Positions 273 to 18,773 of a DNA stretch of 21,888 bases are shown here, piece after piece. The DNA comes from an uncultured Gammaproteobacteria bacterium. GTDB taxonomy: Bacteria > Patescibacteriota > Patescibacteriia > JACPHY01. The DNA is taken from contig CAZPCZ010000017.1 of assembly GCA_964585225.1 (NCBI GenBank), forward strand, positions 1 to 21,888, in the 5' to 3' direction. The first letter of the stretch is position 1, and every line of letters starts with the position of its first letter. Made by a program: the position numbers and the translations under genes. The notes beneath the pieces were generated by a model. The model was not told the DNA's origin and did not search any database. It saw nothing but the letters and a program-made list of their open reading frames with translations.

Positions 273-325
273 AGCTGCAGGGGACCTCCCGGTCCCCCGC
301 AGTACACCCCTCCCTCCGCAATGGG

Positions 326-438
326 CGCTTGTGCGATGACGTCGCGCGGTAGCGGGCAAAGCCCTACCGCCACCGCGTCGAGGCCTCCGGCCTCGACCTC
401 CGGCTCGTCATCGCACTGCGCTCAGAGATCGGAGTAAC
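326..438 (+). repeat. Structured intergenic repeat, copy A (core GGCAAAGCCCTACCGCCAC ... CTGCGCTCAGAGATCGGAG), with internal GC-rich hairpins
   Basis: Core is near-identical to 9001-9090. It is flanked by a perfect inverted repeat gtgcgatgacg / cgtcatcgcac, and has a GGGC-AAA-GCCC hairpin plus an inner palindrome tcgaggcc-tccg-gcctcga. Confidence 0.5.
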
Positions 439-467
439 CACCAACAACCATCCTTAGGGGAGGACCA

Positions 468-4343: not shown

Positions 4344-5312
4344 ATGGCCACGAGCCAATTCGTGCTGCAGTGCGAAGGCGTGCACAAGTCGTTCGGGCCG
4401 AAGCCGGTCCTCCACGACGTGAGCCTCAACATCGCTGCCGGACAGATCGTCGCGCTCGTCGGCCCATCCGGCTGCGGGAAGTCGACGCTGTTCAATGGGA
4501 TCCTCGGGACGCACGCGCCGACGCGGGGCCGAGTGGTCGTGGGACGCAACGGACACGAGCACGTGGTGGCGGGACCGAATCGGCACTGCGGGATCGTGTA
4601 CCAACACTACGCGCTCTATCCGTTCCTCACCGTGCTCGAGAGCGTCGCGTTCGGGCTCATGCTCGACGAGACGTCGCTTCTGTTCCGTGCGTTTCGTCCG
4701 CTGAAGTGGCGGAAGCTCCGCTCGGAGCATCTTGACCGTGCGGCCGCAGCGCTCCGGCGCGTGCACCTCACGGACGCGGACTTCGGGAAGTACGCGAGCG
4801 AGCTCTCCGGCGGGATGCAGCAGCGCGTGGCGGTGGCGCAAGCCATCGTCATGCGGCCGCAGATCCTGCTCCTCGACGAGCCCTTCGGGGCCCTCGACGA
4901 GGCGACGCGGGAATCGCTCCAGACGATGCTCCTCGAGTTCTACGAAGAGAACCGAAGCGCGATCGCGCGGGGAGCGGCCCCGCCGCACACGATGGTCATC
5001 GTGACCCACGAGCTCACGGAGGCGATCTACGTCGCCGACCGCGTACTTGGACTGTCGCAGTACTGGGACTGGCGCTCCGAGGGCCACGCCGCGTGCCCGG
5101 GCGCGACGATCGTGTACGATCGGCCCGCGCCGGTGTACCGGCCGGGCGAACCCAAGAACTACGAGCAGTTCGCCGTGCAGCGGGAGGAGATCCGGAAGGT
5201 GGTGTTCGAGCCCCCCACCCCGACGCCGCGCGGGCTCCACGTGACGTTCTGGGATGACGTCCAGGCCGGCCGCGCGAGCGGCATCACCGCAACCAATGGA
5301 GGTACACCATGA
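4344..5312 (+). CDS. ABC transporter ATP-binding protein (NitT/TauT family) with a ~70-aa C-terminal extension
   Basis: Walker [10 protein letters not shown], signature [14 protein letters not shown], Walker [14 protein letters not shown]-loop VTHEL. The start is 1 nt after the permease stop. Confidence 0.9.
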
Positions 5313-7841: not shown

Positions 7842-7922
7842 TTCCTATTCTCGCTTGTGCTCCTCCCCTTAGGGTAAGGGGAGGTTGGGAGGGGTTACGA
7901 TCCTGGATCACCCTGCCGGGCA

Positions 7923-7988: not shown

Positions 7989-8999
7989 ATGACGGCGCAC
8001 CAATCGGGGTTCACGTACCTCAAGACCGAGCATGAGATCGCGGCGGAGCTCGGGATTCCGGTTCCGGCGCCGATCCGACTGTTCGATCTCGACGGCCTCG
8101 GCATCGACCGCGCACAGTTCCTCGGGGACCTCGCGCCGAGCTTTCGGCAGCTCGCGTGGGACGAGTACGACGCGAAGCGCGAGCAGGTCGCGTTCCTCAA
8201 GCGCAACTTCCCGCAGCAGGTGGAACGGCTCCGCGATTTCCGCGCGCGGTACTACGCGGGGGAGACGGACCTCCGAGAGGTCCGCGACCTCTTCCGCCAG
8301 CTCGAGCACGACGCGCTGCGGAAGTTCGAGCGCATCCGGTCGTACCGGCGACGCTCCATCGCGCGGTTCGAGGTCGTCAAGGCCGACGATGTCATCTGGC
8401 ACAACCTGTGGCGTGTCGTCCAGCAAGAGTGCCACGGCTTCACGCAGAACGTTGGCCCGGACGACCCGCGAGCGATCGAGCGCATCTTCGATCCGACGGC
8501 GATCGACATCGTGCGGCATCGGGAGTTCCAGCGCCTCATCGTCGCGGTCGCGGAGATGGTTGAGGACGCGGAGACCGAGGCGGGGCGGCTGGTGCACGGG
8601 CTGACGCTCACGTTCCACCAGATGGGCCTCGAGGCGCTCGCGGATGGCGTCGCGCCGACGATGGCGCCGGAGGGGATCCACCGCGATGGCGCCGACTACA
8701 TCGTGTCCGCGCTCGTCGTGGAACGTGATGACGTCGAGGGTGGCGAGAGCGTCATCTTTTGTCCGGACAAGGAGCGGAAGTTCCTGACGGTGACGCTCGC
8801 GCCGGGTCAGGGGTTGTTCCAGGCAGACACGCTCTACACGCTCCCGACGGACCAGCAGCTCTGGCACAACGTGTCGCCGGTGGAACTCCGGGACAGCGAC
8901 GGCGACCAGCGCGGGAGCCGGAACATCTTCGGCTTCGACATCGTCATAGCGCGGGACGAACCTTCCGGTTCGCCCGCGGGCCCACTCCCTCCGCAGTAG
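7989..8999 (+). CDS. 2OG-Fe(II) oxygenase superfamily protein (PF10014-like; putative HxD...H iron site in ...PEGIHRDGADY... and ...LWHNVSPV...)
   Basis: The ATG with an RBS is preferred over the TTG at 7923, which is actually the -35 box. 336 aa. Motifs resemble the 2OG-Fe_Oxy_2 family. The gene is monocistronic, between a terminator and a terminator. Confidence 0.6.
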   Translation: MTAHQSGFTYLKTEHEIAAELGIPVPAPIRLFDLDGLGIDRAQFLGDLAPSFRQLAWDEYDAKREQVAFLKRNFPQQVERLRDFRARYYAGETDLREVRDLFRQLEHDALRKFERIRSYRRRSIARFEVVKADDVIWHNLWRVVQQECHGFTQNVGPDDPRAIERIFDPTAIDIVRHREFQRLIVAVAEMVEDAETEAGRLVHGLTLTFHQMGLEALADGVAPTMAPEGIHRDGADYIVSALVVERDDVEGGESVIFCPDKERKFLTVTLAPGQGLFQADTLYTLPTDQQLWHNVSPVELRDSDGDQRGSRNIFGFDIVIARDEPSGSPAGPLPPQ

Positions 9000-9000
9000 T

Positions 9001-9090
9001 CGCTTGCTCGCTCGTCGCAGCGTAGCAGGCAAAGCCCTACCGCCACGTTACTCCTCGCTCGCTGCGCTCTGAGATCGGTGAGCGAGGAAT
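9001..9090 (+). repeat. Structured intergenic repeat, copy B (core AGGCAAAGCCCTACCGCCAC ... CTGCGCTCTGAGATCGGTG)
   Basis: Shares the cgcttg...gtcgc(a/g)...tagc(a/g)ggcaaagccctaccgccac...ctgcgctc(t/a)gagatcgg(t/a)g blocks with 326-438, in the same orientation. It sits in the 3' UTR of the oxygenase gene. Confidence 0.5.
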
Positions 9091-9095
9091 ACAGG

Positions 9096-9132
9096 AACGG
9101 TCCGATGGCCATCGGACCGTTCATCCTTTTTC
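9096..9132. terminator. Perfect 28-bp palindrome gaacggtccgatgg|ccatcggaccgttc followed by atccttttt; terminator between convergent genes
   Basis: Seen directly. The downstream arm overlaps the stop codon of the minus-strand channel gene. The T-tract is on the + strand. Confidence 0.6.
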
Positions 9133-10332: not shown

Positions 10333-10337
10333 CGAAA

Positions 10338-10473
10338 AATTTCTAATTTCTAATTCCTAATGACTAATCAAATCCCAATACCTCGAATACCAAAATCCAG
10401 AAATAAGCTGTTTGGTTATTGGTCATTGGAGCTTGGTCATTGATTAGAAATTAGAAATTCGTCATTAGAAATT
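10338..10473. repeat. AT-rich nested palindromic island (arms aatttctaatttctaattcctaatgactaatca / tgattagaaattagaaattcgtcattagaaatt; inner ccaatacc...ggttattgg, ggtcattgg, ggtcattga)
   Basis: Roughly 30% GC against a >65% GC background. Imperfect long inverted repeats made of ttctaat units. Lies between the gyrB stop and the channel-gene start. Confidence 0.5.
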
Positions 10474-10480
10474 TAGTTGC

Positions 10481-14238: not shown

Positions 14239-15891
14239 ATGGGACTCGTCTCGTCATTCGGAGTACCGATCGCGATTATCGCGATCGCCATCGCCTTCCT
14301 CGGCGTCATCGTCTTCGTCGCGAGGAACTACCTCCGCTGTCCGCCGAACGAGGTGCTCGTCCTCTTCGGACGCCAGCATCGGTTCATCGGCGACGACGGC
14401 AAGGCGATCACCCGCGGCTACCGGCTCATCACCGGTGGCGCGGCCTTCCGCGTGCCGCTCCTCGAGCAGTCGAAGAGCCTGTCACTCGCGCTCTTCGCCG
14501 TCCCGGTCAAGGTCGAGGACACGCCGAACAAGGACGGCGTGCTCGTCACCATCGAGTCGGTGGCGAACGTACGCCTCTCCTCGAACCCGACGCTCCTCGG
14601 TGCCGCGGTCGAGCAGTTCCTCGGCAAGACGGGAGAGGAGATCGAGGCGATCATCCACTCGACGCTCGAAGGCATCGTGCGTCAGCTCGTCGGCACGCTC
14701 ACCATCGAGGAGATGGTGCGCGACCGCGAGGCGATCGCCCATCGGGTGATCGAGCTCACGACCGCCGAACTCGCGAAGCTCGGCGTCGAGTGCAAGAACT
14801 TCGTCCTCACGAAGGTCACGGACAAGAAGGGCTACATCGATGCCCTCGGCCGCAAGCGCGCGGCCGAAGTGCTCCGTGACGCCGAGATCGGCGAAGCCGA
14901 GGCGAAGCGCGAGGCGACGATCAAGTCGTCGACGGCGCTGCGGGAAGCCGAGGAGCAGCGGCTCAAGAACGAAGCCCAAGTCGCCGATGCGAACCGCGAC
15001 CTCGCGGTGAAGAAGGCCAAGTACGACGCGGAGACGCAGGCCGAGCAGGCCAAGGTCGCGCTCGCAGGCCAGATCGCGAAGGCCGAGCAGGAAAAGGAGC
15101 TCAAGCTCAAGGTGGTCGCGGTCGAGCAGACCGAGGTCGAAGCGAAGACGGGCGTGGCGGAGAAGCGCGCGGTTCTCGCCGAGAAGGAACTCGAGGCCAC
15201 GCGCATCAAGCAGGCCGAAGCCGAGAAGAGAGCCAGGATCATCGAGGCCGAGGCCGCGAAGCAGGCCCGGATCCTCACGGCCGAAGCCGAGAAGCAGGCG
15301 GCGATCACCGAGGCCGAGGGCCAGGCGACCGCGGCTGCATCGCAGGCCCGGGCCGCGGAAGAGCAGGCGAAGGCCACGAAGGCGGCGGCCAACGCGGAGC
15401 AGGCCCGCCTCGCGGCCCTGGGAAAGGGCGAAGCCGAGGCGCTCGAGGCGCGCGGCAGGGCGGAGGGCGAGGCCGTCAAGGCCAAGCTGCTCGCCGAGGC
15501 TGAGGGCGTCAAGGCGAAGAACGACGCGCTCGCCCAGATGTCAGAGGGCGCGCGGCTCATCCTCGTCCTCGACCGTCTGCCCGAGGTCCTCGAGCAGGGC
15601 GGTGAGGCGCTCGCCAAGGCGATCGGGCCGGCCTTCCAGGGCATCGGCGCCGGGCTCGCCGCGGTCGACAGGATCGAGATCATCGATCTCGGTAGCGGCG
15701 CGAACGGTCAGGGAACGGCGGTCGAGCGCTTCGCGCTCGCCGTGCCGCAGATCGTCCTCCGGGCGCTCACGGCCGGCCAGGCGACCGGGATCGACCTCTC
15801 GGATCTCCTCGGCAAGCTCGGCATCCGCGTGGCCCGGCAGGGCGGCGCCTCGGCGTCGGCCCCCCACGCAGACGGGTCGGAGAAGGCATAA
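14239..15891 (+). CDS. Flotillin-family SPFH (band 7) protein, FloT/YqiK-like
   Basis: RBS aaaggaaaggag. N-terminal TM, an SPFH domain, a long Ala/Glu-rich coiled coil with EA repeats (AEAEKRARIIEAEAAKQARILTAEAEKQ...), and a conserved C-terminal region. Confidence 0.9.
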   Translation: MGLVSSFGVPIAIIAIAIAFLGVIVFVARNYLRCPPNEVLVLFGRQHRFIGDDGKAITRGYRLITGGAAFRVPLLEQSKSLSLALFAVPVKVEDTPNKDGVLVTIESVANVRLSSNPTLLGAAVEQFLGKTGEEIEAIIHSTLEGIVRQLVGTLTIEEMVRDREAIAHRVIELTTAELAKLGVECKNFVLTKVTDKKGYIDALGRKRAAEVLRDAEIGEAEAKREATIKSSTALREAEEQRLKNEAQVADANRDLAVKKAKYDAETQAEQAKVALAGQIAKAEQEKELKLKVVAVEQTEVEAKTGVAEKRAVLAEKELEATRIKQAEAEKRARIIEAEAAKQARILTAEAEKQAAITEAEGQATAAASQARAAEEQAKATKAAANAEQARLAALGKGEAEALEARGRAEGEAVKAKLLAEAEGVKAKNDALAQMSEGARLILVLDRLPEVLEQGGEALAKAIGPAFQGIGAGLAAVDRIEIIDLGSGANGQGTAVERFALAVPQIVLRALTAGQATGIDLSDLLGKLGIRVARQGGASASAPHADGSEKA

Positions 15892-17270: not shown

Positions 17271-17370
17271 GGATTGTTTCATTGTCTCATTGTTTCATTG
17301 CTCCCACCCCCTCTCGCTCCCCTTCGTGGGAAGGGGAGAACAATGTAACAATGGAACAATGTAGCAATGG
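17271..17370. repeat. Miniature TIR element: three TTTCATTG-like octamers, then the hairpin ctcccctt-cgtgg-gaaggggag, then three inverted octamers. No ORF.
   Basis: Left arm ggattgtttcattgtctcattgtttcattg matches the reverse complement of the right arm caatgtaacaatggaacaatgtagcaatgg at ~22 of 30 positions. AT-rich against the GC-rich background. The arms are near-identical to the TIRs flanking the four-helix-bundle gene. Confidence 0.6.
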
Positions 17371-18310: not shown

Positions 18311-18760
18311 CACTGTTTCATTGTCCCATTGCTTCATTGTCATGCCGATCGTATCTCCAGAAACGAAAAAGTACCTGCAGTTGAACGACATTGATGCGTA
18401 CAGAGTTGCATTCCAGCTATCGAACGAAGTTTGGGGCATCGTCATTCGTTGGGATCACTTCGCCAAGGATACGGTAGGTAAACAGTGGGCGCGCGCCGTT
18501 GATTCTATCTCAGCGAACATTGCGGAGGGGTTCGGACGTTACACAAAAAGAGATAAAATCAACTTTTACCGATATAGTTTCGGTTCTGTAAAGGAATCAT
18601 TGGATTGGAATGAGAAGGCGAAAGTGAGGGGGCTGATCTCAGCAGAACAACACCAACACGTCTACACCGCATTGAACCAGCTACCGCGGTTGATCAACCA
18701 ACTCATACAGTTCACGAACGAGCGCCTCCAGCAATGAAACAATGAAGCCATGAAACAATG
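18311..18760 (+). mobile_element. TIR-bounded cassette carrying a four-helix-bundle (23S rRNA IVS-family) gene; arms cactgtttcattgtcccattgcttcattg / caatgaaacaatgaagccatgaaacaatg
   Basis: The two 29-nt arms are inverted (~23/29 match) and each is made of three TTTCATTG-like octamers. The enclosed gene is markedly AT-rich relative to its neighbours. Arms match those of the 17271-17370 miniature element. Confidence 0.55.
18342..18737 (+). CDS. Four-helix-bundle protein (PF05635 / TIGR02436, 23S rRNA-intervening-sequence protein family)
   Basis: ...SISANIAEGFGRYTKRDKINFYRYSFGSVKESLDWNE... matches the family hallmark SIPSNIAEGxxRxSxKEFxxFLxIAxGSxxEL. An ATG 12 codons inside the TTG-start ORF is preferred. 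Confidence 0.85.
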   Translation: MPIVSPETKKYLQLNDIDAYRVAFQLSNEVWGIVIRWDHFAKDTVGKQWARAVDSISANIAEGFGRYTKRDKINFYRYSFGSVKESLDWNEKAKVRGLISAEQHQHVYTALNQLPRLINQLIQFTNERLQQ

Positions 18761-18773
18761 AGCGCTGATTATT

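What the first reader, a model, noticed from the sequence alone, without database searches (positions are those of the whole stretch)
326..438. Two-copy structured intergenic repeat with conserved core GCAAAGCCCTACCGCCAC ... CTGCGCTCNGAGATCGG (second copy at 9001-9090)
Both copies sit in the same orientation in the 3' UTRs of + strand genes (after the OmpA-domain gene and after the oxygenase gene). They share blocks cgcttg / gtcgc / tagc(g|a)ggcaaagccctaccgccac / ctgcgctc(a|t)gagatcgg(a|t)g. Copy A carries an extra internal GC-rich hairpin and is closed by a perfect 11-bp inverted repeat (gtgcgatgacg...cgtcatcgcac). Copy B instead has cgcagcg...cgctgcg around the same core. Conserved sequence blocks with different closing stems and a variable insertion look like a REP/MITE-like element, or a small structured RNA (3'-UTR-derived sRNA, RNase processing site).
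Basis: seen in the sequence. Interest (0 to 1): 0.55.

Follow-up and report, generated by a model that had tools for sequence, protein, structure and literature searches.

The report
Low-copy structured intergenic repeat, CPR bacterium
A roughly 140-190-base non-coding module with two conserved hairpins sits after two genes of an uncultured Patescibacteria (Uhrbacteria-like) bacterium; one copy is shared with related genomes, the other is a recent lineage-specific insertion, so it is a previously undescribed but modest example of a transcribed bacterial repeat element.

Summary
Three colinear blocks recur at 310-434 and 8985-9080 in the same orientation. Each is expected about 0 times by chance.

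The repeat is larger than reported: copy A is 273-434, inside an insertion at 273-457, and copy B is 8948-9084. The left third of copy B is read as the last 14 codons of the 2OG-Fe dioxygenase.

- **Copy A is an insertion.** Five related contigs have only a 17-21-nt OmpA-to-next-gene spacer at that site.
- **Copy B is older.** Orthologous copies follow the dioxygenase gene in two related genomes. Two others lack it, with possible remnants. More distant relatives do not have it.
- **The module is constrained.** Orthologous copies are 82-91% identical, against 63-70% at four-fold codon sites.
- **Two hairpins covary.** H1 and H3 carry the compensatory changes. H3 presents GGGC-AAA-GCCC.
- **It matches nothing known.** There is no Rfam match, promoter, terminal inverted repeat or coding potential, and no further copy in about 70 kb of related DNA.

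Best reading: a low-copy, co-transcribed structured repeat of the REP/ERIC/BOX kind, acting in cis on mRNA. A 3'-UTR regulatory RNA with a C-rich anti-Shine-Dalgarno seed is not excluded.

Interest is modest.

The parts
273..457 (+). Copy A: the whole lineage-specific insertion between the OmpA-domain gene stop (TAG 270-272) and the Shine-Dalgarno sequence (GGGAGG 458-463) of the 254-aa gene (ATG 468)
   Evidence: Relatives L046, L047, L048, L049 and L050 have only 'TGA + 17-21 nt + ATG' here. R1 covariance model hit at 273-436, 114 bits.
275..302 (+). H1 of copy A: CTGCAGGGGACC / loop TCCC / GGTCCCCCGCAG
   Evidence: Predicted in every fold. The stem differs from copies B, C and D by compensated changes.
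310..331 (+). C-rich linker block of copy A (CTCCCTCCGCA...CGCTTG). TCCCTCC is invariant in all four copies.
   Evidence: In the fold of 262-490 it pairs with CGGAG 430-434 and with the downstream GGAGG of the ribosome-binding site.
344..378 (+). H3 of copy A: variable 7-bp stem (GCGCGGT/ACCGCGT) carrying the conserved tip GC-GGGC-AAA-GCCC-TACC-GC.
331..417 (+). Features specific to copy A: an 11-bp perfect outer stem (331-341 / 407-417) and an extra GC hairpin (377-397), partly built from a tandem CCTCCGGC(C)TCG duplication
   Evidence: fold. Absent from copies B, C and D in alignments A3 and A5.
414..434 (+). Right conserved block (H4 candidate) of copy A: CACTGCGCTCAGAGATCGGAG
   Evidence: The pairs are nearly invariant, so the helix is unproven.
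435..457 (+). Tail of the copy A insertion (TAACCACCAACAACCATCCTTAG). It is not shared with copy B and resembles the CA-rich pre-Shine-Dalgarno leaders of related genes.
   Evidence: alignment. Leaders of this kind are seen in L056, L057, L051 and L058.
8948..9084 (+). Copy B: the element at the 3' end of the 2OG-Fe dioxygenase gene. Positions 8948-8999 are translated and the stop is TAG 8997-8999.
   Evidence: R1 hit at 8948-9082, 146 bits. Orthologous copies at L052:2839-2975 and L053:1277-1380. C-terminal extension shown.
8950..8978 (+). H1 of copy B: CGCGGG-A-CGAACC / loop TTCC / GGTTCG-CCCGCG
9017..9051 (+). H3 of copy B: GCAGCGT ... GGC-AAA-GCC ... ACGTTAC. It contains the 18-nt core (9029-9046).
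9060..9087 (+). Right conserved block of copy B (CGCTGCGCTCTGAGATCGGTG), plus the copy-B-specific arm GAGCGAGG that pairs with CCTCGCTC 9053-9060
9095..9132 (+). Intrinsic terminator of the dioxygenase transcript (12-bp stem plus T run). It is not part of the repeat, but it shows that copy B lies inside the + strand transcript.
   Evidence: An equivalent terminator remains in L051 and L058, which lack the element.

Best explanation
This is a lineage-restricted, non-coding, structured repeat module of about 135 nt, or about 185 nt with the additions specific to copy A. It belongs to an uncultured Patescibacteria (Uhrbacteria-like) lineage.

**Parts, in order**
- H1, a 12-bp GC hairpin with a UCCC loop. 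It starts 0-4 nt after a stop codon.
- An unpaired C-rich stretch, CUCCCUCC.
- H3, a hairpin whose variable stem presents the conserved tip GGGC-AAA-GCCC-UACN.
- The conserved block CUGCGCUCWGAGAUCG.

**History**
- The copy behind the dioxygenase gene is the older one. It is shared with two related genomes.
- Copy A is a newer paralogue. It replaced the short OmpA-to-next-gene spacer in this lineage only.

**How it probably works (inferred)**
- The module has no promoter of its own and is transcribed as part of the host mRNAs. Copy B lies in the 3' UTR between the stop codon and the intrinsic terminator. Copy A is an intercistronic spacer.
- It most likely acts in cis at the RNA level, as REP/BIME, ERIC and BOX elements do. 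It would be a stable folded block that shapes mRNA 3'-end stability or processing.
- In copy A it may also lower translation of the downstream gene, because the C-rich linker is predicted to pair with that gene's ribosome-binding site.
- It spreads rarely. The copying mechanism is unknown and is not classical cut-and-paste, since there are no terminal inverted repeats.

**Shown versus inferred**
- Shown: the repeat itself, the insertion, orthologous conservation above the neutral level, and covariation in H1 and H3.
- Inferred: transcription, any effect on mRNA, and the mode of copying.
For: **Repeat well beyond chance**
-.

**Copy A is an insertion**
- Five related contigs (65-87% amino-acid identity in the flanking gene) carry only 'TGA + 17-21 nt' at site 1.

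**Orthologous copies at site 2**
- The element is present in L052 (79% amino-acid identity) and L053 (92%).
- The R1 covariance model scores them at 157 and 107 bits.

**Constraint**
- Element identity is 82% for B-C and 91% for C-D. Four-fold sites of the adjacent gene are 63% and 70% identical. Binomial p is about 2e-7 and 3e-7.
- The dioxygenase upstream intergenic region between the same genomes is 62-68% identical.

**Covariation**
- 7 of 32 pairs change on both sides among only 4 sequences, against 0-1 when partners are slid.
- Examples are C-G/G-C in H1. In H3 they are U-A (copies A, B) against C-G (copies C, D), and G-C against A-U between copies C and D.
- H1 and H3 are recovered by RNAalifold on an automatic alignment and on a manual one.

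**Transcription context**
- Neither copy contains a promoter-like site. A + strand terminator lies directly after copy B. No terminator lies between OmpA and the next gene.

**Descent of copy A**
- Copies A and B share derived states against copies C and D: GTAGC, CTACCGCCAC and GATCGG. This points to a within-lineage origin of copy A.

**Predicted effect in copy A**
- In both the MFE and the centroid fold, the linker CCUCC pairs with the downstream GGAGG.
Against: - Only four instances are known, and one is truncated, so covariation statistics are weak. The structure was also derived from the same sequences it is tested on.
- Copy number looks low. R1 found no further copy in about 70 kb. Scans with the 18-nt core found no other copy.
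- That core is variable, though. Copies C and D differ from it at 3 positions, so divergent copies would have been missed.
- The element is absent after the dioxygenase gene in two close relatives, L051 and L058. It is therefore dispensable.
- The B-D comparison shows little excess conservation: 86% against 81%, p = 0.12.
- There are no terminal inverted repeats and no clear target-site duplication. The junction at site 1 is a replacement of about 10 nt rather than a clean insertion.
- The functional strand cannot be decided from G-U versus A-C counts.
- No expression data exist.
Confidence: 0.5

Rival explanations
1. It is a dedicated regulatory RNA. The dioxygenase 3' UTR gives rise to a small RNA, by processing or as part of the mRNA. 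Its exposed C-rich sequences, the UCCC loop of H1 and the CUCCCUCC linker, pair with GGAGG-type ribosome-binding sites. This would resemble the C-rich seed sRNAs of Firmicutes (RsaE/RoxS; own knowledge). Copy A would be a duplicated cis version that sequesters the ribosome-binding site of the 254-aa gene.
For: - TCCCTCC is invariant in all four copies yet unpaired in the consensus.
- The H1 loop is UCCC in three of the four copies.
- The module is conserved above the neutral level.
- Copy B is followed by an intrinsic terminator, which would give a defined 3' end.
- Copy A is predicted to sequester the downstream Shine-Dalgarno sequence.
Against: - There is no promoter-like site.
- Copy A has no terminator.
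- The element is missing in L051 and L058 and absent in more distant relatives that keep the dioxygenase gene.
- C-rich sequence is common in a 65% GC genome.
- No Rfam family matches.
- There are no expression data.
Confidence: 0.2
2. It is a transposon-derived, non-autonomous DNA element mobilised as single-stranded DNA by a Y1/HUH transposase encoded elsewhere in the genome. That would make it a REP/RAYT-type or IS200/IS605-derived palindrome-associated element. The hairpins would be recognition structures for the enzyme, not RNA structures.
For: - Site 1 is polymorphic for presence or absence.
- A subterminal hairpin sits at the 5' end, preceded by TAG in three of the four copies.
- There are no terminal inverted repeats and no clear target duplication, as expected for this class (own knowledge of IS200/IS605).
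- The hairpin stems covary while the loop and foot are conserved.
- The strand of the structure is undecided, which is compatible with DNA.
Against: - No transposase lies in the 22-kb window or in any fetched locus (Pfam; gene tables).
- Only two copies are seen.
- Orthologous copies are conserved above the neutral rate. That is not expected for a dead insertion unless gene conversion acts on it.
- Site 1 shows a replacement of about 10 nt plus an unrelated 23-nt tail rather than a precise insertion.
Confidence: 0.15
3. It is a double-stranded DNA site for a protein, such as a nucleoid protein or transcription factor. The palindromes GGAACC-N4-GGTTCC and GGGC-AAA-GCCC would be recognised by a dimer, and the rest would be carried along.
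For: - The perfectly conserved short palindromes GGGCAAAGCCC and ACCTYCCGGT occur in all copies.
- Both copies lie at gene ends.
Against: - Compensatory changes extend over 12-bp and 7-bp stems whose sequence is not conserved. That fits folding, not dimer recognition.
- No adjacent regulated promoter exists at site 2, where the genes converge.
Confidence: 0.05
4. It has no function. An old 3'-flank of the dioxygenase gene was copied once by illegitimate recombination, and the conserved blocks only reflect recent common ancestry.
For: - Only two copies are known.
- The junctions at site 1 are messy.
- The element has been lost in L051 and L058.
- The B-D comparison is not significantly above neutral.
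Against: - The B-C and C-D comparisons are far above four-fold-site and intergenic identity.
- Double-sided compensatory changes keep H1 and H3 paired.
- Perfect 13-17-nt blocks persist while neighbouring stems have turned over.
Confidence: 0.1

Closest known systems
ERIC / IRU elements of Enterobacteriaceae
   Same: - Size is about 127 nt or more.
- They lie in transcribed intergenic regions, often at the 3' ends of genes.
- They fold as RNA, and some copies carry internal insertions.
- Orthologous loci differ in presence or absence.
- They are reported to affect mRNA processing and stability (PMC3184786).
   Different: - ERICs are long imperfect palindromes with terminal inverted repeats and flanking TA (PMC3184786). 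Here no terminal inverted repeats were found.
- There is no sequence similarity.
- Copy number here is apparently very low.
BOX elements of Streptococcus pneumoniae
   Same: - The build is modular: conserved end modules with a variable middle.
- They are predicted to be stable RNA structures and are transcribed (PMC3184786).
- Copy A differs from copy B by added internal hairpin modules.
   Different: - BOX modules (boxA, boxB, boxC) are defined sequences that repeat in tandem and are present in many copies.
- There is no sequence relation, and no tandem module repetition apart from a 13-nt duplication in copy A.
REP / BIME elements and their RAYT transposases
   Same: - Both are GC-rich hairpins in extragenic positions.
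- REPs show a bias for sites between convergent genes, and can affect mRNA stability (PMC3184786). Site 2 lies between convergent genes.
- Both involve a hairpin preceded by a short conserved motif.
   Different: - REPs are 20-40-nt units, usually present in more than 100 copies per genome and arranged in BIMEs (PMC2817692).
- This is a composite module of about 135 nt with 2 known copies, and no RAYT gene is seen.
IS200/IS605-derived palindrome-associated elements (own knowledge)
   Same: There are no terminal inverted repeats and no target duplication, and a hairpin sits close to the end.
   Different: No TnpA or TnpB is nearby. The target motif and cleavage sites are not defined. Orthologous copies are under constraint.
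C-rich seed sRNAs such as RsaE/RoxS (own knowledge)
   Same: UCCC and C-rich unpaired motifs are presented on or next to stable hairpins, and they are complementary to ribosome-binding sites.
   Different: - There is no homology and no Rfam hit.
- No own promoter is found.
- Existence as a separate RNA is untested.

Membership tests
MITE (classical) | Terminal inverted repeats at the two ends (PMC3184786) | tested here: not met
   The best end-to-end inverted match is 4-6 nt in copies A, B and C, no better than shuffles.
MITE (classical) | Target-site duplication flanking the element (PMC3184786) | tested here: inconclusive
   At site 1 the insertion is bounded by ...TAC-TAG| and |CCT-TAG-GGGAGG. 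However, about 10 nt of the empty-site spacer (TGAAACGAGA) are replaced rather than duplicated. At site 2 no true empty site is available.
MITE (classical) | Small (under about 200-400 bp), non-coding, folds into stem-loops as RNA | tested here: met
   The module is 135-185 nt with no conserved ORF (sequence). Fold z-scores are -7.6 (A), -6.0 (A with flanks) and -3.9 (B). Copy C is only -1.8.
MITE (classical) | Evidence of mobility: presence or absence at orthologous sites | tested here: met
   Site 1 is filled only in the window lineage and is short in L046-L050.
REP / BIME | High copy number, usually more than 100 per genome (PMC2817692) | tested here: inconclusive
   There are 2 copies in 22 kb and none in about 48 kb of related loci. 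The core 18-mer was found only at the same locus in the collections. The full genome could not be scanned, and the core varies between copies.
REP / BIME | Unit is a single 20-40-nt imperfect palindrome, often in alternating clusters | tested here: not met
   The repeat unit is a composite of about 135 nt with two different hairpins plus unpaired conserved blocks.
REP / BIME | Associated RAYT (Y1) transposase gene in the genome | not testable with these tools
   None lies in the window or the fetched loci.
Any Rfam 15 RNA family | Score at or above the family gathering threshold | tested here: not met
   There were 0 hits at gathering threshold. The best permissive hits on either copy fall far below gathering score, for example ctRNA_pGA1 at 20.9 against 45 bits, and that hit lies mostly on the terminator.
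3'-UTR-derived small RNA | A discrete stable transcript with defined 5' and 3' ends | not testable with these tools
   Only the context is known. Copy B lies between the stop codon and an intrinsic terminator. Copy A has no terminator.
Structured RNA in general | Base pairs maintained by compensatory substitutions | tested here: met
   H1 has 2 pairs with changes on both sides and H3 has 5. Overall 90% of cells are paired, against 32-45% when partners are slid. Caveat: there are only 4 sequences, and the structure was derived from them.
Island att sites / DGR template-variable repeat pair | Direct repeats delimit a mobile segment, or the differences are confined to adenines and lie next to a reverse transcriptase | tested here: not met
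   Gene order across site 1 is the same in relatives that lack copy A. Differences between A and B are of all kinds, with indels. No integrase or reverse transcriptase is present.

The most novel reading that the evidence does not exclude
The module is a previously undescribed, selectively maintained regulatory RNA of a Patescibacteria lineage. It would be carried in the 3' UTR of the 2OG-Fe dioxygenase mRNA. It would use its exposed UCCC loop and CUCCCUCC linker as anti-Shine-Dalgarno seeds. A duplicate was then recruited in cis to throttle translation of the 254-aa membrane-associated gene downstream of the OmpA-domain gene. This would be one of the first candidate sRNA or cis-regulatory RNA classes specific to CPR bacteria.
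Probability: 0.2. Interest if true: 0.55.

Novelty: new member of a known kind. Interest (0 to 1): 0.35.

Why it matters
Patescibacteria (CPR) genomes are small and tightly packed. Very little is known about their non-coding RNAs or their small mobile elements.

A 135-nt module that is conserved above the neutral rate, has compensated hairpins and has been copied to a second operon is a concrete, testable candidate for either class.

It also shows how such an element remodels genes. It gave the dioxygenase a new 14-residue C-terminus. It replaced a 17-nt intercistronic spacer with a 185-nt structured one that is predicted to mask the next gene's ribosome-binding site.

The practical value is limited by the narrow distribution and by the small number of copies known so far.

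Tried and rejected
- **Known RNA family.** Rfam found nothing at gathering threshold on the window, and nothing meaningful in permissive scans of both copies. ARAGORN found no tRNA or tmRNA.
  - The genome-contig scan gave 13 hits and the metagenome scan 28. All were chance matches without shared flanks, except the same locus.
  - In hindsight the core was a poor probe, because copies C and D differ in it at 3 positions.
- **Viral contigs.** A two-block pattern gave 2 chance hits.
- **Annotated phages and plasmids.** There was nothing beyond 32-nt GC-rich chance matches.
- **Further copies.** The R1 model with filters off found none in the window plus 12 related loci.
- **Coding potential.**
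  - The 38-codon ORF in copy A (321-437) is not conserved. It is stopped in copy B, and indels shift the frame.
  - On the minus strand, GGAGGGAG is not followed by a usable start codon.
- **Internal promoter.** None was found. The CGCTTG...TAGC spacing varies from 10 to 15 nt between copies.
- **Island att sites or DGR.** Both were rejected on synteny and on the pattern of substitutions.
- **Conserved whole-element fold.** Outside H1 and H3 the individual MFE structures disagree. The long-range linker pairing differs in each copy.
- **Strand assignment from G-U versus A-C mismatches.** The result is ambiguous.
- **Literature.** A search for the core sequence found nothing relevant.
- **Naming the source organism.** The exact-sequence look-up returned no names. 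Taxonomy therefore rests on named relatives.
- **An error of mine.** The first Pfam query for the upstream gene fragment used the wrong frame (protein 1). The OmpA assignment rests instead on the full-length 523-aa product in L015 and L016.

Full report

Yes.
- The 18-nt core occurs exactly twice, at 356-373 and 9029-9046. Only 0.02 matches are expected even when three mismatches are allowed.
- The right block CTGCGCTCNGAGATCGG occurs exactly at 416-432 and 9062-9078.

The blocks are colinear and in the same orientation.

These are the 11-bp inverted repeat and GC hairpin in copy A, and CGCAGCG/CGCTGCG in copy B.

Alignment shows that the similarity starts earlier than reported, at 273 and 8948. 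It begins with a GC hairpin that I call H1.

**2. Source and context**

The window is a whole metagenomic contig. Identical loci occur in JGI and ENA assemblies, and L014 carries both copies unchanged.

Homologues of the flanking proteins that carry names come from Candidatus Uhrbacteria and other Patescibacteria. I therefore treat the source as a CPR bacterium with about 65% GC.

- **Copy A.** It lies between the stop codon (TAG 270-272) of a 523-aa OmpA-domain protein and the 254-aa gene that starts at 468. The Pfam OmpA hit is on the full-length product in L015 and L016.
- **Copy B.** It lies at the end of a 2OG-Fe dioxygenase gene (PF10014). It is followed by a + strand intrinsic terminator at 9095-9122 and by a convergent TrkA-N gene.
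- **Promoters and terminators.** Neither copy contains a promoter-like site. No terminator separates OmpA from the next gene.

Both copies should therefore be transcribed on the + strand as part of the host mRNAs. This is an inference.

**3. Copy A is an insertion**

Five related contigs have only 'TGA + 17-21 nt + ATG' between the two genes, for example TGA-AACGAGAGGGAGGACCA-ATG. The flanking protein in these contigs is 87, 81, 75 and 65% identical to the window's. The window has 185 nt at this position.

The insertion brings its own TAG stop, where relatives have TGA. It replaces about 10 nt of the old spacer. It ends with a 23-nt CA-rich tail (435-457) that copy B lacks and that resembles the pre-Shine-Dalgarno leaders of related genes.

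This is not a clean cut-and-paste footprint. The ends carry no inverted repeats.

**4. Copy B is older and has orthologues**

| Locus | Dioxygenase identity to the window | State after the gene |
|---|---|---|
| L052 | 79% | Full copy (C) directly after the stop codon |
| L053 | 92% | Copy (D), cut by the contig end |
| L051 | 89% | No element, terminator kept; possible remnant GATCGAT |
| L058 | 83% | No element, terminator kept; possible remnant GCGCGGGAGGAACC inside the CDS end |
| L056 | 70% | No element |
| L057 | 66% | No element, different gene order |

In the window, TAG-CGCGGG... lies out of frame, so the dioxygenase reads 14 codons into the element (DEPSGSPAGPLPPQ). Close homologues end earlier.

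This explains why exact-core scans of the public collections returned only chance hits and the same locus.

**5. Constraint**

| Comparison | Element identity (ungapped columns) | Four-fold sites of the adjacent gene | Binomial p |
|---|---|---|---|
| B-C | 82% | 63% | about 2e-7 |
| C-D | 91% | 70% | about 3e-7 |
| B-D | 86% | 81% | 0.12 |

The intergenic region upstream of the dioxygenase is 62-68% identical between L052 and the window, L053 or L051, with many gaps.

The element is therefore constrained in the C and D lineages. Copy B has accumulated changes of its own (TTCC loop, CAGGC, CGCTG).

Copies A and B share derived states against C and D: GTAGC, CTACCGCCAC and GATCGG. These include a compensated U-A/C-G pair. 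Copy A therefore arose inside the window lineage, from copy B or from an unseen sister copy.

**6. Structure**

RNAalifold recovers two helices on an automatic alignment and on a hand-made one.
- **H1.** It has about 12 bp with a one-base bulge and a UCCC/UUCC loop.
- **H3.** A 7-bp stem of variable sequence carries the invariant tip GC-GGGC-AAA-GCCC-UACN-GC.

On alignment A5, 90% of cells are paired and 7 of 32 pairs change on both sides. With the 3' partners slid by 1-3 columns, 32-45% of cells pair and 0-1 pairs change on both sides.

Telling cases:
- C-G/G-C and A-U/G-C in H1.
- U-A (copies A, B) against C-G (copies C, D) in H3.
- The only two differences between copies C and D in the upper H3 are G-to-A and C-to-U at paired positions.
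- Copy A has rebuilt three consecutive H3 pairs and the lower H1 stem while keeping both paired.

Caveats:
- There are only four sequences, and the structure was derived from them.
- The right block can form a small hairpin (H4), but it hardly varies, so it is unproven.
- TCCCTCC is invariant and unpaired in the consensus.
- G-U versus A-C counts do not decide the strand.

In copy A, both the MFE and the centroid fold pair the linker CCUCC with the GGAGG of the downstream ribosome-binding site.

**7. What it is not**

- It matches no Rfam family and is not a tRNA or tmRNA.
- No ORF is conserved between copies.
- It is not a pair of island att sites or a DGR template-variable pair.
- It has no match in viral, phage or plasmid collections.
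- The R1 model built from the four copies finds only those copies in about 70 kb of the window and related loci.

**8. Interpretation**

The best fit is a low-copy member of the general class of transcribed, structured intergenic repeats such as REP/BIME, ERIC and BOX. It would act in cis on the mRNA that carries it, affecting 3'-end stability or processing. In copy A it possibly also occludes the next gene's ribosome-binding site. It is copied rarely by an unknown mechanism.

It does not meet the formal MITE definition, because terminal inverted repeats are absent. It does not meet the REP definition either, in unit size or in copy number. The claim is therefore 'works like', not 'is a member of' (definitions from PMC3184786 and PMC2817692).

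The main rival is a dedicated 3'-UTR regulatory RNA with C-rich anti-Shine-Dalgarno seeds. A Y1-transposase-mobilised DNA element, a protein-binding DNA site and a functionless duplication are less likely, but none is excluded.

**9. Verdict**

This is a real, previously undescribed small repeat or RNA module with a narrow distribution. It is a new member of a known kind, of modest interest (0.35).

The decisive data are genome-wide copy number, the presence of a transposase, covariation with many more copies, and transcript ends.

Noticed in passing
window 17273-17369 and 18314-18761: A low-GC gene for a 23S rRNA-intervening-sequence / four-helix-bundle protein lies at 18342-18737 (PF05635, E 8.7e-22). 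It is bracketed by inverted arrays of an 8-nt-period repeat: TGTTTCATTG-type at 18314-18339, and CAATGAAACA-type at 18732-18761. A second inverted pair of the same arrays (17273-17300 and 17339-17369) encloses only a roughly 40-nt GC hairpin, as if it were an empty version of the same cassette.
   Followed up: partly
window 10337-10474: An AT-rich 42-nt inverted repeat made of AATTTCT / ATTAGAA heptamers (arms 10337-10378 and 10433-10474, 79% complementary). It lies between the start of the TrkA-N gene and the end of gyrB, in an otherwise 65% GC contig.
   Followed up: no
window 7850-7920: The region upstream of the dioxygenase promoter carries an extra hairpin-rich segment of about 70 nt (…CCCCTTAGGGTAAGGGGAGGTTGGGAGGGGTTACGATCC…). 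It is absent from L053. L051 shares 26 nt of it exactly, at the orthologous place. This is a second small indel-type element in this lineage. The promoter TTGACA-17-CATACT behind it is conserved in the window, L053, L051 and L058.
   Followed up: partly
window 9096-9121; L057 about 4917-4942: The terminator hairpin ACGGTCCGATGGCCATCGGACCG after copy B is 25/26 identical to a hairpin at a different locus of a 66%-identity relative (L057). The orthologous terminators of closer relatives (L051, L052, L058) have different stems. The hairpin is possibly mobile or convergent.
   Followed up: partly
L046:2952-2968, L058:1086-1100, L053:1271-1280: The short spacer at site 1 (TGAAACGAGAGGGAGG) resembles the post-stop sequences at site 2 (TGAAAACGAGAACGG in L058, TGAAAACG|CGGG in L053). 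They share TGAAA(A)CGAGA. This may hint at a preferred target, or it may be chance.
   Followed up: no
window 15150-15473: A 33-nt coding tandem repeat (about 3 copies, GGCCGAAGCCGAGAAGCAGGC...) lies inside the SPFH/flotillin-like gene 14239-15891. It probably encodes an Ala/Glu/Lys-rich coiled-coil segment.
   Followed up: no
L057:5030-5075: Five tandem copies of CATCAACCA lie immediately upstream of the dioxygenase start codon in the relative L057. CA-rich leaders (CAACAACCA and similar) precede the ribosome-binding sites of several genes in this group, including the tail of copy A.
   Followed up: no
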